The translations under genes were made by a program, and so were the position numbers. Positions 15,446 through 19,954 of a DNA stretch of 64,000 nucleotides are shown here, in pieces. The stretch comes from Psilocybe cubensis (Eukaryota): contig CM039004.1 of the NCBI GenBank assembly GCA_017499595.2, forward strand, positions 2,232,001 through 2,296,000, given 5' to 3'. Under the pieces are notes generated by a model. That model was given only the letters and a program-made list of their open reading frames with translations, ran no database searches and was not told the origin of the DNA. Position 1 is the first letter of the stretch; every line of letters starts with the position of its first letter.

Positions 15446-15922
15446 GATGCAAATCGCAGAAGAACGACGGTGAGTTAAAACGTTTTTAAGTGGACCTCAA
15501 TGCCCTGGTACATATTATCACCGTCAATTATGTTCCCGAGACATAGTGACGAAGATCTGAATCAGTTGTGGATACTATGCGGATACATGACAATCCAGGG
15601 ATCGATCAGGTCACCAAATAACGAGTCAATTTCCTGAGCAGCCAATTAAAAACCGATTCAATCGAGGTGCCAGAGGTGGTTTGGGTGTCCTCCATACAGT
15701 AGTGCAATATTGTGGGGCTTTTGACTCGTTAAATATTGCCCCTAGTCAAGTCGCGTCCAAGTAATTACAGGGTCATGTGATGGCGTATGCTGGGATCATT
15801 TGCAGATTGAAGCGGAGATTCAACAATAATAACGTAAACTGTACAGTTGATGCCGGGAATCTGTCCGCAAATTATTGCCGCAATCAGTATCGACAAGCCC
15901 AACCTCGACACCGACAAAAACA

Positions 15923-16419
15923 ATGGCCCCCACCAAGAAATCAAAAGCCGCGAAGTCCACCGAGTCCATCGCCGCCAGGCTCGCGCTCGTCGTCAAGTCG
16001 GGTCAGTACACCCTGGGCTACAAGTCGGCACTGAAGCAGATGCGCAACGGCAAAGGTGAGCACTCTTTTGAACGTCTCTCTCGGGGACTGGAGCGTGAGG
16101 CTGAGAAGGTCCCTTGACTGATGCATATTTTTGTTTTGTTTCTGTTGAATAGCTAAGCTCGTGCTGATCGCTGGCAACTGCCCTCCTCTCCGCAAGTCCG
16201 AGCTTGAGTACTATGCCATGCTTTCCAAAACCACTGTACACCACTTCGCTGGTACCAATGTAGCCCTTGGAACCGCTGCCGGAAAGCTCTTCCGTGTCGG
16301 GTATGTGAACCTGATTGTGGTCCTCTACTGTTGTTCTGATCAGTTTGTTTAGTGTCATGACTGTCAGCGACCAGGGAGATTCCGATCTCCTCAACTTCGC
16401 TGAGGGTAATGCTGCTTAA
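15923..16419 (+). CDS. RPL30: 60S ribosomal protein eL30
   Basis: [37 protein letters not shown] and [11 protein letters not shown] motifs; introns 16056-16152 and about 16302-16352. Confidence 0.97.
16083..16114 (+). promoter_or_regulatory. Putative eL30-binding kink-turn element in RPL30 intron 1
   Basis: GGGAC-UGGA-GC[GUGAG]GC-UGAGA-AG-GUCCC resembles the yeast L30 pre-mRNA autoregulatory site. Confidence 0.65.
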
Positions 16420-16787
16420 GTTTCGCAGACATTATTATTTTTGTATCCCTACATGCTTGTTGTCGAGTCACGCGTATATGTATATGCATTACCATGGATC
16501 CATTGCTTGAGTTATGTAGCCGACAATCTTGGTGAGGTTCCACGCATCTATTCTCTGAGTTCGGGCACGTTTCCGCCGACGGTCCACTTGTGCATTGGGT
16601 TATGTTCGGATGTGATGTAAACTGTTTTCCACCTCAACACTGCAAGAAACGTTATGTTTTGAATTTGGATACTTTGGCGTTTCCTTCCACGGTTAATACA
16701 TTGAGATTTTGTGGACTTTACTTTCGCTGGTATAGTTTGCAAGGGCAATGAAGAACGCAATATATTTTTATTAAAAAACAAATCATC

Positions 16788-17097
16788 AGCCACAGAGCTA
16801 GCATAGTTGGTGTAGCGTCACCGGCCACCGCGATACTCAGTGCAATGCGGTCGTTCGTTCGAACCCCACGCAGAGCAATTTCGTGGACCGGTTAAGCTCC
16901 AGCCGCAGCCATGGTTAGTCCCGAGACAAAGGGGCGCATATGACGAAGCGTGTAGAAGTGAAACCTTCCACGTTCAGAGACATCCAGTGGACCAACATCT
17001 GCAGATGCATACCGTTAAGGCGAACGAGATAAAGATATATGCCATTGAGCACAGACACAAGGACGTAGGCAGCGCTAAGAGCGCACCGAACCTTTTT
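16788..17097 (+). ncRNA. Putative Pol III structured ncRNA, unit 1 (about 310 nt, family unknown)
   Basis: A-box TAGCATAGTTGG 16799, B-box GTTCGAACC 16857, 3' stem with GUA/GAA internal loop, T5 at 17093; motifs shared with unit 2. Confidence 0.55.
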
Positions 17098-17188
17098 GGT
17101 TTTGAAATTAACCTCGCTATTAATCCACAACATTTTTCTTTCAAGTGAAAGAATAATTATATAACATGGGAATTGGCTAGATTCTGAT

Positions 17189-17606
17189 GTGCAAGTTAGT
17201 TTGCGCCCTCTCTTTGTGAAGTGGATCCGCGTGAGTTGATGCCGTGGTACTGATTGGACGTGGTCGTTCGTTCGAACCTCACATTGTTCAACTCTGCAAT
17301 CAATGTCTGCACCATAGACCATTGAGGGGGGTTCGTCCTGTGACGAATTATTGGCCCTCTTCAAGAGGGGCAGATACCGAGAAAGGTGACACGGGTCTTG
17401 TACCTGTTCCCAGATTTCTCTGACATGCACTCGGCCAGTGGCGCCAGGCGGAAGTTGCCCTCTGTAGGACGCTATGGAGTCACATTCGCTGCTTGCACTC
17501 TTGGGACGCCTTGAGTCGCATGAAAACGCTGCTTAAAGTGCGAGAATCTCGTTCACAGGACGTGATATACAGGATGTAGGCCAATTAAATTGGTCGAACC
17601 TGTTTT
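17189..17606 (+). ncRNA. Putative Pol III structured ncRNA, unit 2 (about 420 nt, family unknown)
   Basis: TATATAA 17158, 5' hairpin, A-box-like TTGTGAAGTGG 17214, B-box 17270, long stem 17334-17346/17549-17562, same 3' module, T4 at 17603. Confidence 0.55.
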
Positions 17607-18187
17607 GCTCGACGTTGTCGAAACCATAGTTTGTTGTATGTATGTATGTCCACGGCGTCGCTTGGTCGGAAATGTGTCAGTTGCTGTGGTGGTGGTGCAA
17701 TGTGTGTGCTGGTGTGGTGGAATCTCTCGTCGGATTCGATTCACGCTCAGTACTAGGTTCTTCCCTTAATAACGTTTGCAAAGCCGAGGGCAATACTTCT
17801 GAGATCGTTATGTATACATGCGAGGCAGATTTCCAGACATTTATAAATATATATTAACCAGAACGACATGCCTTGTAATGTGAAGCGAGGCTTGTGATAT
17901 CACAATATTGACCACTCATAAAACAGAGGTCGTTGTTCAAAATCTCTCGGGCACAGGGATTTCAGGTTTAAGAAGGGATAGTCTACCCCTTGACCTGTTT
18001 TGTCCGATTGTATTTCTCATCAATTTAGTGCTTGGACAACACGAGACTCGACTTTTTGGTTTCTGCGCAGTTTTGACTTGTACATCTGAGAACTTGAAGT
18101 CCTTGTAAATATTCAATAAAGCAACTACAAACACCAGCATGAAAACAGTGAGGTGTATTACAAGAAAGCTCTTATGGCAGGGATATT

Positions 18188-19954
18188 CTACAGTAGGGAA
18201 GGGGTCATCTCGATGATAGAATGAGGTCCCTTTAGAGTGTAGTCCGCTTTGGAGACAAAGTTCCTTCCATTTGGCTCGCTGAAAATAATCTGAAAGGAAA
18301 AAGAAAGTCATTCAATTTAGCACGATTTCGCCAAGATATATTGACCACTCCAACTCACTTTGGCAGTAATACTGGACCCAAGGAATGCAGCGTAGCCATT
18401 GCCGGTCTGTTGGTATTCTGCATAATACTCGGGCACGGAGAGGACGCGGATTGAGCGGGGTTGTATATCAGTCAAAAGGTCGGGGTTGTTAATAAAGGAA
18501 GCAAGACGGGATTGTAGTGCCACGCCGATGCCTGATATCAAATGGACATTAGTAGATAAATTGATTAAGACTATGACTACCACATACCCTTGATATGTCT
18601 GGTAATATCTCCGGTAACGAACAAGCCATGCCAAATGTATTGACGTTGGTCAACTTCCGTTTGATTGACGACATGGCCAACGACCTCCTGCAACGCAAGA
18701 GGCTTTTCTAACGCAGGATTCAATGCCGCCGTGCCAGGTAAGTCAAGCAACAGACTAGGATCAAAGAGCGGCTCGCAGAATCGGTGTCTTTCCTTTCCTA
18801 TTGTCAGCGAATGCTCCCGGAACTGCACAGTGATTAGATCCATCGCCTCAACGTCGCGTTCGCGCTTCCGCTCTGCCTCAGTCTGCTTTGTCGCGTTCTT
18901 TTTCTTCTGTGTGCTTTCGATGACAGCTTTTTCACGTCCGGCGACGACGACAGCCGCAATGTCCATTACACCTTCGTCCTCTGGTAGCGCGGTCTCGCCG
19001 TCGGAGGGAATTTTGATATGGTCTTCCTTCCAGAGTTGCTTGACTAGCTCGAGGAGCGTATCATGGAGCGTTTTCGGGTCAAGTGGATTCTCGGGTGGCG
19101 AAAGTGCGTTCACTACGAACTGGTTGGCGCGCAGAAGGTTGGCGACGTAGTTTTGGCAGTGACGGATGCCAAGAGCCACGCTGGATCGCGCGTTGTGCAA
19201 GATGAACCCATCGTAAATGGGGGTGATGTCAGTGACCTCGTCACCAATGTCAACTACGACACCACTGAGGCTGTTCGCCGCGTACAGCTGGGCCATGGGA
19301 CGTTCAAGGATGGCGAATCCGGCGACGTTGAATCGCTCGAAGAAAATCTGGCAGATACGTTCGTAAGTGTCGCGTGAGGCGCCTGCTGTAATGGAGAAGA
19401 GGATAGGAGATTCATTCTGCACACGGCGCCGTTGAAGCTGGTTAAAGAGCACGTATTTCCTTTTGAATGGATGTAACACAGAGATCAGTATGTGGATATC
19501 AGTTATAAGTAGGTCAACGAACCATATAGCTTCTGCTTGTGTCCAGTCGTTGACACCACCATCGGCAAAAGGCCATGAGACTACGATGTCCTGGCCGTTC
19601 GCCAGAGCTTCGTCCAGCTGTGATCCAACAAGGTAGTCTTTCACAGCTGCAGTTGGAGAAGCCATCTGTGGAAACGCCGAAGTCGCGCGGCTCGTTGAAG
19701 CCAACGGTTCATCAGAGCCGTGTAAGCCTCCGTTCAGTTGCGACTCAGAGTTATCACCCAATGCATTTCTTCGTAGACCCACTCGGGCAGGAATTTCCTG
19801 AGGAAGATGCAAATGTTATAAGTATGTTGACGCGCCTGAGCCAAGGAACACGTACGACGGTTGGGGTTTTCAAAAGATCGTGAAGGCCCAGTCCAGCTCG
19901 AACAACTGTTCTGCTGACCTCAATGATAACGACGTTTGCGTCGCGGATTGACAT
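18188..19954 (-). CDS. ARP9: Nuclear actin-related protein (Arp9-like, RSC/SWI-SNF)
   Basis: Actin-fold motifs: QIFFERFNVAGF, LYAAN..SGVVVDIG...TDITPIYDG, IGKERHRFCEPLFDP, VPEYYAEY, AAFLGSSITAK. Confidence 0.75.

What the first reader, a model, noticed from the sequence alone, without database searches (positions are those of the whole stretch)
16788..17606. Tandem pair of unassigned, structured Pol III-type RNA genes downstream of RPL30
Seen: two units of about 310 and 420 nt share GGTCGTTCGTTCGAACC (16849-16865 and 17262-17278; 21 of 23 nt identical when extended), which contains a B-box. Each has a tRNA D-arm-like A-box 56-58 nt upstream, an AT-rich or TATA element further upstream, a hairpin before the B-box (ACCGCG/UGCGGU versus GCCGUG/CGUGGU), a central CCATTGAG, and the same 3' module ending in a T-run. 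Interiors differ in length and sequence but are rich in stems, and G-U pairs indicate the + strand. Knowledge: internal A/B boxes plus T4-5 define type-2 Pol III genes. I do not see hallmarks of tRNA, 5S, U1-U6, U3, SRP, RNase P/MRP or a telomerase template. Inference: a paralogous pair from an undescribed basidiomycete ncRNA family (tRNA-derived head, variable body, conserved 3' module); an old SINE family is the alternative.
Basis: partly seen in the sequence, partly recalled or inferred. Interest (0 to 1): 0.85.

Follow-up and report, generated by a model that had tools for sequence, protein, structure and literature searches.

The report
Paired unassigned Pol III-like RNA genes
Two neighbouring stretches behind a ribosomal-protein gene look like a related pair of small non-coding RNA genes of the kind read by RNA polymerase III; they appear in RNA data and match no known RNA family, but their function and their presence in other fungi could not be tested.

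Summary
The core observation is real. An exact 17-mer (21 of 23 nt when extended) holding a B-box core occurs twice, 413 nt apart, on the + strand only (0 of 100 shuffles give two copies). Each copy lies in a GC-richer block (0.53, 0.51) set off by AT-rich spacers (0.31-0.42). Each block has no T4 run inside and ends in one. Unit 1 has an exact tRNA-type A box 58 nt upstream; unit 2 has only a weak one.

Several claimed details are chance or unsupported. CCATTGAG is not collinear. Single-sequence folding is no better than shuffles. The head is not tRNA-like beyond the boxes.

New support:
- The two 5' domains share a long-hairpin consensus (25 pairs, 8 compensatory, z about -3).
- Two further blocks sit at matching offsets (20/2000 and 38/2000 shuffles).
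- Contigs on both units occur in two runs that hold spliced RNA.
- A second strain shows no differences across the units while the flanks differ by about 1.2%.

Rfam and ARAGORN find nothing, so RNase P, MRP and SRP RNAs and tRNA are unlikely.

Best reading (0.45): a paralogous pair of Pol III type-2 small-RNA genes from an unassigned family. Strand, polymerase, RNA ends, copy number and cross-species conservation remain untested, because no fungal genomes were in reach.

The parts
16759..16779 (+). AT-rich / TATA-like stretch upstream of unit 1, starting about 38-40 nt before the A box
   Evidence: read; spacer GC 0.41
16788..17097 (+). Unit 1, predicted transcript of about 310 nt running to a T5 run. 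Start and strand are inferred.
   Evidence: GC 0.53 against 0.41 and 0.31 in the spacers; no T4 between 16770 and 17092. Contigs 16798-17009 (X1) and 16850-17055 (X2) from runs that hold spliced RNA.
16799..16810 (+). A box TAGCATAGTTGG, exact to TRGCNNAGTNGG
16801..16906 (+). Unit 1 5' domain: extended hairpin with the shared block at its apex
   Evidence: RNAalifold consensus on the MAFFT alignment, 25 pairs, 8 changed on both sides. Column-shuffle z -3.06; z -2.9 without the apex. Unit 1's own MFE fold has the same helices.
16847..16869 (+). Shared 23-nt block (21 of 23 identical); B-box core GTTCGAACC at 16857-16865
16913..16930 (+). Conserved block GGTTAGTCCCGAGACAAA, 47 nt after the B box (51 nt in unit 2)
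   Evidence: banded test, 20 of 2000 shuffles
17060..17097 (+). Unit 1 3' module: AGGACGTAGGC, hairpin GCGCT/AGCGC, CGAACCT, T5
17152..17165 (+). TATA-like AATAATTATATAAC upstream of unit 2
   Evidence: read; spacer GC 0.31
17200..17606 (+). Unit 2, predicted transcript of about 400 nt running to a T4 run. Start and strand are inferred.
   Evidence: GC 0.51; no T4 between 17138 and 17602. Contig 17220-17394 in X1.
17214..17224 (+). Weak A box TTGTGAAGTGG (2 mismatches), 56 nt before the B-box core
   Evidence: aligns with unit 1's A box in A3
17216..17319 (+). Unit 2 5' domain: extended hairpin, consensus with unit 1
   Evidence: Unit 2's own MFE fold uses partly different partners.
17260..17282 (+). 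Shared 23-nt block; B-box core at 17270-17278
17330..17347 (+). Conserved block GGTTCGTCCTGTGACGAA
17571..17606 (+). Unit 2 3' module: AGGATGTAGGC, hairpin 17579-17595, CGAACCT, T4
   Evidence: In strain X5 one allele has T>C at 17594, turning a G-U pair of this hairpin into G-C.

Best explanation
These are two adjacent, paralogous small non-coding RNA genes on the + strand, about 310 nt (16788-17097) and about 400 nt (17200-17606). RNA polymerase III most likely transcribes them from an internal tRNA-type (type-2) promoter.

Inferred mechanism:
- TFIIIC binds the A box and the unusual extended B box (GGTCG-TTCG-TTCGAACC).
- TFIIIC places TFIIIB on the AT-rich/TATA-like stretch upstream.
- Pol III starts a few nt before the A box and stops at the T5 or T4 run.

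The promoter-bearing 5' domain of about 105 nt does not fold as a cloverleaf. It folds as an extended hairpin with the B box at its tip, and it is still joined to the body in the RNA that was assembled. The bodies have diverged except for one block 47-51 nt after the B box. A common 3' module follows: AGGAYGUAGGC, a hairpin, CGAACCU and a U run, which would be a likely La-binding end.

Function is not shown. My best guess is stable RNP-forming RNAs of the BC1 / 4.5SI type, in which a tRNA-type promoter domain has become a stem-loop.

Shown: the sequence features, the shared consensus fold, presence in runs that hold spliced RNA, and low polymorphism.
Inferred: the strand, the polymerase, the RNA ends and any function.
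For: SEQUENCE SIGNALS
- The 17-mer occurs twice: 2 of 2 matches in the window, 0 of 100 shuffles give two copies. It extends to 21 nt at 95% identity.
- Unit 1's A box is exact. The B-box core is exact in both units, 58 and 56 nt downstream of the A boxes.
- The units are GC 0.53 and 0.51, against 0.41, 0.31 and 0.42 in the spacers. T4+ runs occur about 5 per kb in the window, yet 323 nt and 465 nt on the + strand are free of them and end in T5 and T4. On the minus strand, unit 2 has an internal T4 (17523-17526) and no terminal run.

SHARED STRUCTURE AND COLLINEAR BLOCKS
- An alignment of the two 5' domains made without regard to structure gives a 25-pair consensus hairpin. Eight pairs changed on both sides and 50 of 50 cells are paired.
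- Column shuffles: z -3.06, 3 of 500. With the shared apex removed, z -2.9, 4 of 500.
- Collinear conserved blocks: 20 of 2000 shuffles after the B box and 38 of 2000 before the T run. Tail local alignment: 6 of 500.

RNA DATA
- Runs X1 and X2 (one study) skip the two GT..AG introns of the upstream L30e-family gene and the introns of the downstream actin-family gene. DNA runs X3 and X5 do not, so X1 and X2 hold spliced RNA.
- They carry contigs at 16798-17009, 16850-17055 and 17220-17394, each bridging head and body with 0 other letters.

POLYMORPHISM IN STRAIN X5
- Contigs cover the units with 0 differences from 16323 to 17593 (1240 covered nt). The laid flanks carry 20 substitutions and 4 indels in about 2060 nt.
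- The first difference, 17594 T>C, converts G-U to G-C in unit 2's 3' hairpin.

COPY NUMBER
- One 19.6-kb contig of X3 spans the whole region, so no near-identical copy broke the assembly.
- Neither the head model nor nhmmer finds a third copy in the window.

PRECEDENTS FROM PAPERS
- Yeast RNase P RNA carries its promoter elements in a 5' part of the transcript (PMC5095917, passages).
Against: - Contigs cannot show strand, ends or level, and the RNA status of X1 and X2 is inferred from spliced contigs in a single study.
- The units' contig depth is low (7-19), against about 610-665 for the ribosomal-protein gene.
- The minus strand gives an equally good consensus fold (z -3.84, 1 of 500).
- Single-sequence folding is not better than shuffles.
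- Unit 2's A box has 2 mismatches. Its terminator is only T4, below the 5-6 reported as the minimum for yeasts (PMC5095917, passages).
- Upstream of the 17-mer, sequence similarity is not significant (377 of 500; 264 of 2000).
- The low-polymorphism stretch also covers the 316-nt spacer 16472-16787, so it is not specific to the units. It also rests on a single strain comparison.
- The structure argument rests on two sequences only.
- No homologue from any other genome was obtained, so conservation is unknown.
Confidence: 0.45

Rival explanations
1. ETC-like TFIIIC sites. The two conserved 21-23-nt extended B boxes would bind TFIIIC as chromatin boundary or tethering elements between convergent genes. 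The RNA seen would be incidental Pol II read-through or cryptic transcription.
For: - The strongly conserved part is a 23-nt block around a B box, while most of the rest is barely alignable.
- Yeast ETC sites are defined by a 23-bp extended B-box consensus conserved among species (PMC3395662, passages).
- The upstream gene is very highly represented, at about 610-665 depth against 7-19 for the units. A few percent read-through could therefore give such contigs.
Against: - An exact A box at tRNA-like spacing, terminal T runs, GC-rich block boundaries, collinear blocks far from the B box and a shared hairpin consensus are all unnecessary for a bare TFIIIC site.
- Yeast ETC sites lie mostly between divergent genes (PMC3395662, passages); this intergene is convergent.
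Confidence: 0.15
2. Relics or master copies of tRNA-type SINEs. A head with A and B boxes, a family-specific body and a shared 3' tail recognised by a partner LINE, with two elements inserted next to each other.
For: - The head / variable body / shared 3' hairpin architecture resembles tRNA-derived SINEs (general knowledge, recalled).
- tRNA-related SINE families with target-site duplications are described in a fungus (PMC5063351, abstract start in the listing).
Against: - No third copy in 64 kb.
- One 19.6-kb DNA contig spans the region unbroken, so there is no near-identical repeat family.
- No A-rich or simple-repeat tail.
- No direct repeats flank the units. The only nearby pair, GTTTTGAA(A)TT at 16656 and 17099, would enclose 120 nt of extra 5' sequence.
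- There is 1 difference in about 717 nt of the units against about 1.2% in the flanks in strain X5, which is unlike neutral relics.
Confidence: 0.12
3. Leader-type Pol III genes, as in yeast RPR1 and SNR52. The 5' domain would be only a promoter-bearing leader that is cut off, and the mature RNAs would be the bodies of about 230 and 330 nt. In the extreme version these are divergent RNase P and MRP RNAs lying in tandem.
For: [quoted passage not shown]
- The block GGTTNGTCCYGNGAC faintly recalls the CR-I region of P/MRP RNAs (recalled consensus).
- Unit 2 has a 10-bp long-range complement, 17334-17343 with 17553-17562, and a GAGAA loop.
- Tandem P/MRP genes are reported in some protists (recalled; paper not seen).
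Against: - No RNaseP_nuc, RNase_MRP or SRP match even at E up to 10 on single units. Rfam models do find these RNAs in Auricularia and Inocybe with highly significant matches (PMC9849065, passages).
- The conserved GNAA of CR-I is absent, and unit 1 can form only 4 bp of a P4-like helix.
- A 10-nt inverted repeat is expected about once by chance in 1.5 kb.
- The assembled contigs join head and body.
Confidence: 0.1
4. Minus-strand or Pol II transcripts: an unannotated lncRNA or a small protein-coding gene.
For: - The consensus fold is as good on the minus strand.
- A T6 run lies just beyond unit 1 on the minus strand, at 16773-16778.
- A 205-codon stop-free frame runs on the minus strand, 16915-17532.
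- The runs may be poly(A)-selected (unknown).
Against: - The 205-aa frame has no Pfam match above threshold; the best is RecC_C at 14.5 bits against a cut-off of 22.6.
- No splice joint was found in the units. All 4 joints listed belong to the two flanking genes.
- On the minus strand, unit 2 has an internal T4 and no terminal run.
- The A box and TATA-like elements fit the + strand only.
Confidence: 0.1
5. Chance: one duplicated 21-mer in ordinary intergenic DNA, with everything else read into it.
Against: The combination with the contigs and the polymorphism pattern.
Confidence: 0.05

Closest known systems
Rodent BC1 RNA and 4.5SI RNA (tRNA-related, Pol III-transcribed small RNAs)
   Same: - Internal A and B boxes plus an upstream TATA-like element (4.5SI: PMC10137851, abstract start in the listing).
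- A tRNA-like 5' end that folds as a single extended stem-loop rather than a cloverleaf (BC1: PMC3976132, passage).
- A unique body and an oligo-U end.
   Different: - The units are two to four times longer (310-400 nt against about 100-150 nt, recalled).
- The head here cannot be traced to any tRNA.
- The host appears to be a fungus; there is no sequence similarity; function is unknown.
S. cerevisiae RPR1 and SNR52 (leader-type Pol III genes)
   Same: A and B boxes lie in the 5' part of a transcript several hundred nt long, upstream of the functional body (PMC5095917, passages).
   Different: - The leader is removed in yeast; here contigs join head and body and processing is unknown.
- The bodies match neither the RNase P model nor any snoRNA model.
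Yeast ETC (extra-TFIIIC) sites
   Same: A conserved extended B-box block of about 23 bp in an intergene (PMC3395662, passages).
   Different: - ETC sites lack an A box, a terminator and a stable transcript, and lie mostly between divergent genes.
- Here there are an A box, T runs, RNA contigs and a convergent intergene.
tRNA-derived SINEs (for example AfuSINE2 of Aspergillus fumigatus)
   Same: A head with A and B boxes, an unrelated body and a shared 3' end.
   Different: - No dispersed copies were seen, no target-site duplication and no A-rich tail.
- Polymorphism is low.

Membership tests
Pol III type-2 (tRNA-like internal promoter) gene | A box TRGCNNAGT(N)GG near the 5' end (consensus recalled) | tested here: inconclusive
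   Unit 1 matches exactly at 16799-16810. Unit 2 has 2 mismatches at 17214-17224.
Pol III type-2 (tRNA-like internal promoter) gene | B box GGTTCGANNCC about 30-60 nt after the A box | tested here: met
   The core GTTCGANNC is exact in both units. The full 11-mer has 1 mismatch (unit 1) and 2 mismatches (unit 2). Start-to-start spacing from the A box is 58 and 56 nt.
Pol III type-2 (tRNA-like internal promoter) gene | Oligo-T terminator with no T4 inside the gene | tested here: met
   T5 at 17093 and T4 at 17603, with none inside either unit. T4 is short by the yeast standards quoted in PMC5095917.
Pol III type-2 (tRNA-like internal promoter) gene | Occupancy by TFIIIC, TFIIIB and Pol III; uncapped oligo-U-ended + strand transcript | not testable with these tools
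   Only contigs of public runs were available. They show presence, not strand, ends or polymerase.
tRNA | Cloverleaf with anticodon arm | tested here: not met
   ARAGORN found 0 genes in the window. Relaxed runs gave no call that uses the A and B boxes as D and T arms. No Rfam tRNA match at E up to 10.
Nuclear RNase P / RNase MRP RNA | Match to the RNaseP_nuc or RNase_MRP covariance models | tested here: not met
   No match at E up to 10 on 1.2 kb or on the single units.
Nuclear RNase P / RNase MRP RNA | CR-I / CR-V forming helix P4 (consensus recalled) | tested here: not met
   Unit 2 has a 10-bp complement. Unit 1 has only GUCC/GGAC, and the GNAA of CR-I is missing in both units.
SRP RNA | Match to the SRP covariance models | tested here: not met
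tRNA-derived SINE | Many dispersed copies | tested here: inconclusive
   No third copy in 64 kb. The region lies in one unbroken 19.6-kb DNA contig. The whole genome is not held.
tRNA-derived SINE | Target-site duplications and an A-rich or simple-repeat tail | tested here: not met
   No direct repeats at the unit borders. The units end in T runs.
ETC (extra-TFIIIC) site | Extended B box bound by TFIIIC without Pol III and without a gene | not testable with these tools
   A conserved 23-nt block is present, but occupancy is unknown. The A box, T runs and RNA contigs argue for a gene.

The most novel reading that the evidence does not exclude
An undescribed family of 300-400-nt Pol III-transcribed RNAs in a mushroom-type fungus. 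Its tRNA-type promoter domain, with a B box expanded by a TTCG duplication, would have been converted into an extended hairpin and kept in the mature RNA, making it a fungal counterpart of BC1 / 4.5SI. The family would be held under purifying selection and maintained as a tandem paralogue pair with a common 3' hairpin and oligo-U module, implying a shared protein partner.
Probability: 0.3. Interest if true: 0.6.

Novelty: new member of a known kind. Interest (0 to 1): 0.45.

Why it matters
The known set of Pol III transcripts in fungi is small: tRNAs, 5S, U6, SRP RNA, RNase P RNA and snR52 in yeast (PMC5095917). My five literature searches found no description of further Pol III ncRNAs in Agaricomycetes or other basidiomycetes.

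A conserved, expressed pair of new Pol III RNAs would add to that set. It would also give a fungal example of a tRNA-type promoter domain reused as an RNA stem-loop, and a compact Pol III promoter that could be used for guide-RNA expression in such fungi.

If the blocks are instead TFIIIC-only sites, they would be a first hint of ETC-like boundary elements outside yeasts. In either case the claim is cheap to test with one northern blot and one genome-wide search.

Tried and rejected
1. Own genome. None is held, so copy number could not be counted.

2. Homologues.
- The 21-mer pattern in metagenome contigs gave 2 hits (read) and in genome contigs 1 hit, a Gemmataceae MAG. The 17-mer in viral contigs gave 3 hits.
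- All 6 loci are unrelated; the three I could check are high-GC or bacterial DNA.
- Head model R1 gave 7 matches on these loci. Six cover only the shared block or a short stretch around it. The seventh (L006 4559-4615, 7.5 bits, E 4.7) is noise. No locus looks like a unit.

3. Sequencing runs.
- No RNA holder is listed on record.
- X1 and X2 have no cover at 16472-16797, 17056-17219 or 17395-18227, and no contig bridges the ribosomal-protein gene and unit 1. I do not count this as evidence of separate transcripts.

4. Earlier notes of this scan. Nothing for this genome or for look-alike sequence. A word search gave only other genomes.

5. Literature. Searches found no paper describing such RNAs. 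The 13-nt core appears only in an unrelated parvovirus PCR paper. Supplements were not consulted.

6. Whole-unit consensus folding. It gave z -6.5 (0 of 200). I do not trust it: the alignment has long gap blocks that column shuffling scatters, and MAFFT misaligned the 3' modules.

7. The MAFFT tail alignment gave no consensus pairs, because the two hairpins were put out of register.

8. The weak SNORA44 match on the minus strand (18.8 bits against a gathering score of 55) is rejected as chance.

9. Protein-coding reading. Of the 3 longest frames scanned, 2 had no Pfam match at E up to 1. The third, the 205-aa minus-strand frame, had only RecC_C at 14.5 bits, below its cut-off of 22.6.

10. Telomerase template. 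None was seen by eye; only CTAACC occurs on the minus strand.

11. Bacterial-type promoter and terminator scan. Not above shuffles and not relevant.
Full report
SETTING

The finding lies in a 1.7-kb intergene between two convergent genes.
- Upstream on the + strand is a gene whose second exon matches Ribosomal_L7Ae/L30e (E 7e-10). Downstream on the minus strand is a gene with an Actin-family domain (E 5e-28).
- Public contigs skip introns in both genes. The upstream gene has two GT..AG introns, at about 16056-16152 and 16301-16352. The downstream gene has two CT..AC joints on the + strand.
- I did not verify the organism.

Confirmed:
- The 17-mer GGTCGTTCGTTCGAACC is exact at 16849-16865 and 17262-17278. 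These are the only 2 matches in the window on either strand at up to 2 mismatches, and 0 of 100 dinucleotide shuffles give two.
- The repeat finder extends it to 21 nt at 95% identity, spacing 413. By reading it is 21 of 23.
- It contains GTTCGAACC, an exact match to the B-box core GTTCGANNC. That core has only 5 matches in 128 kb of both strands.
- Unit 1 has TAGCATAGTTGG at 16799, exact to the tRNA-type A box with the one-base insertion (consensus recalled), 58 nt before the B-box core.
- Both units are preceded by AT-rich/TATA-like stretches.
- T4+ runs occur about 5 per kb in this window. Even so, the + strand is free of them for 323 nt and 465 nt, ending in T5 (17093) and T4 (17603).
- The two units are GC 0.53 and 0.51. 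The spacers before, between and after them are 0.41, 0.31 and 0.42.

Weaker than stated:
- Unit 2's A box, TTGTGAAGTGG at 17214, has two mismatches.

Features that do not hold up:
- Apart from the 17-mer, shared words of 7 nt or more number 10, against 6.0 +/- 2.5 in 300 shuffles.
- CCATTGAG sits at quite different positions in the two units.
- Unrestricted local alignments of the region upstream of the 17-mer and of the bodies are not above shuffles (377 of 500 and 320 of 500).
- Neither unit folds better than its shuffles on either strand. The z-scores are -0.80 and -0.91 on the + strand and -0.10 and +0.37 on the minus strand.

EVIDENCE OF RELATEDNESS BEYOND THE 17-MER

If the units are collinear homologues, similarity should lie near the diagonal once they are anchored on the shared features. 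A banded test (+/- 8 nt, 2000 shuffles) gives:
- GGTTNGTCCYGNGACNAA at 47 and 51 nt after the B box: 20 of 2000.
- AGGAYGTAGGC at the same distance before the T run: 38 of 2000.
- The stretch before the 17-mer: 264 of 2000, not significant.

The tail also shares CGAACCT followed by the T run (6 of 500). Between AGGAYGTAGGC and CGAACCT each unit has a hairpin with a different stem sequence: GCGCT/AGCGC in unit 1 and GGCCAAT/ATTGGTC in unit 2.

The 5' domains give the strongest result.
- A MAFFT alignment made without regard to structure (16795-16915 against 17210-17332) gives an RNAalifold consensus of one long hairpin. It has 25 pairs, 8 of them changed on both sides, with the shared block at the tip. 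All 50 cells are standard pairs, which is partly by construction.
- Column shuffles of the same alignment give z -3.06 (3 of 500).
- With the apex columns held fixed, z is -2.5 (11 of 500). With the apex cut out, z is -2.9 (4 of 500).
- The reverse complement does as well (z -3.84, 1 of 500), so this supports a conserved hairpin but not a strand.

Two sequences are a thin basis. I treat this as moderate support for paralogy and for a structured 5' domain that is not a cloverleaf.

EXPRESSION AND POLYMORPHISM (runs found)

- No run is on record as RNA.
- In X1 and X2 (one study, two samples), however, contigs skip the four introns of the flanking genes. The DNA runs X3 and X5 read through them. 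X1 and X2 therefore hold spliced RNA.
- They carry contigs identical to the window at 16798-17009 (X1, depth 18.8), 16850-17055 (X2, depth 10.1) and 17220-17394 (X1, depth 7). Each joins the head to the body.
- Contigs cannot give strand, ends or level, and the depths are low beside 610-665 for the ribosomal-protein gene.
- X3 holds the whole stretch in one 19.6-kb contig and may be the source of the window. An unbroken contig argues against a family of near-identical repeats.
- X5 is another strain. Its contigs cover 15500-17164 and 17196-17593. All 8 substitutions and the one indel of the first contig lie at or before 16322, and the second contig has none.
- So 1240 covered nt (16323-17593), including both units, carry no difference. 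About 2060 nt of flanks carry 20 substitutions and 4 indels (about 1.2%).
- The first difference, T>C at 17594 in one of two alleles, turns a G-U pair of unit 2's 3' hairpin into G-C. Differences become dense just beyond the T run.
- This fits constraint. However, the quiet stretch also includes the 316-nt spacer before unit 1, differences cluster, and it is one comparison.

WHAT IT IS NOT

- Rfam finds nothing at gathering thresholds in the whole window. At E up to 10 on 1.2 kb or on each unit alone, the only hit is a chance-level minus-strand SNORA44 match.
- ARAGORN finds no tRNA. Relaxed runs give only inconsistent low-score calls.
- I considered RNase P and MRP RNAs with leader promoters seriously, for four reasons: yeast RNase P RNA has its promoter in a cleaved 5' part (PMC5095917, passages); the block after the head faintly recalls CR-I; unit 2 has a 10-bp long-range complement; and tandem P/MRP genes are recalled from protists.
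- Against that reading: Rfam models detect P, MRP and SRP RNAs in Auricularia and Inocybe with highly significant matches (PMC9849065, passages); unit 1 can form only 4 bp of such a helix; and a 10-nt inverted repeat is expected about once in 1.5 kb.
- No third copy of the head or tail exists in the window. No flanking direct repeats or A-rich tails are present.
- The open frames have no Pfam match above threshold.

BEST READING

The best reading is a paralogous pair of small-RNA genes with a type-2 Pol III promoter in a 5' domain that has become an extended hairpin. The bodies have diverged, and the units share a 3' hairpin plus oligo-U module.

The nearest functional analogues are BC1 and 4.5SI. 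BC1's tRNA-like 5' end folds as one stem-loop instead of a cloverleaf (PMC3976132, passage). 4.5SI has A and B boxes plus an upstream TATA-like box (PMC10137851, abstract start seen in the listing).

I put this at 0.45. The rivals are:
- ETC-like TFIIIC sites with incidental transcription: 0.15. The 23-bp extended B-box definition is from PMC3395662, passages; the lead came from earlier notes.
- SINE relics: 0.12.
- Leader-type genes, including divergent P/MRP RNAs: 0.10.
- Minus-strand or Pol II transcripts: 0.10.
- Chance: 0.05.

LIMITS

- No genome of this organism and no fungal genome collection was available.
- Scans of metagenomic, prokaryotic and viral collections with the shared block returned only chance hits.
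- The decisive comparative and strand-specific tests therefore remain to be done.
- My claim that no such family is in print rests only on the searches.

Noticed in passing
window 17630-17720: A GT-rich stretch with a 22-nt direct repeat (17671-17692 and 17699-17720, 82% identity). Just upstream, strain X5 is heterozygous: two alternative contigs cover 17564-17694, with indels at 17632, 17635 and 17645. This is a polymorphic microsatellite-like spacer right after unit 2.
   Followed up: partly
window 16915-17532, minus strand: A 205-codon stop-free frame spans both units and the spacer. It has no Pfam match above threshold and no start codon near its beginning. It is probably chance, but it is long for intergenic DNA.
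   Followed up: partly
window 17165-17195: Contigs of strain X5 break here, between 17164 and 17196, in the AT-rich spacer just upstream of unit 2. This suggests a heterozygous or divergent stretch in what would be unit 2's promoter-proximal region.
   Followed up: no
window 16656-16666 and 17099-17109: GTTTTGAATTT / GTTTTGAAATT is a direct repeat 443 nt apart. The second copy directly follows unit 1's T5 run. It could be a chance AT-rich match or an old duplication border.
   Followed up: no
window 17132-17157: An AT-rich near-perfect inverted repeat (ATTTTTCTTTCA / TGAAAGAATAAT, 2-nt loop) lies in the spacer between the units, just before the TATA-like element of unit 2.
   Followed up: no
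window 17590-17601 compared with 17262-17278: Unit 2's 3' end carries GGTCGAACC, which is the shared 17-mer minus its internal 8 nt (TTCGTTCG). This gives a second B-box-like element at the tail. Unit 1's tail has only CCGAACC.
   Followed up: no
window 18475-18739: RNA run X2 differs from the window at 5 places in the actin-family gene, but at none in the ribosomal-protein gene or unit 1. X2 therefore comes from a different strain or allele than X1.
   Followed up: no
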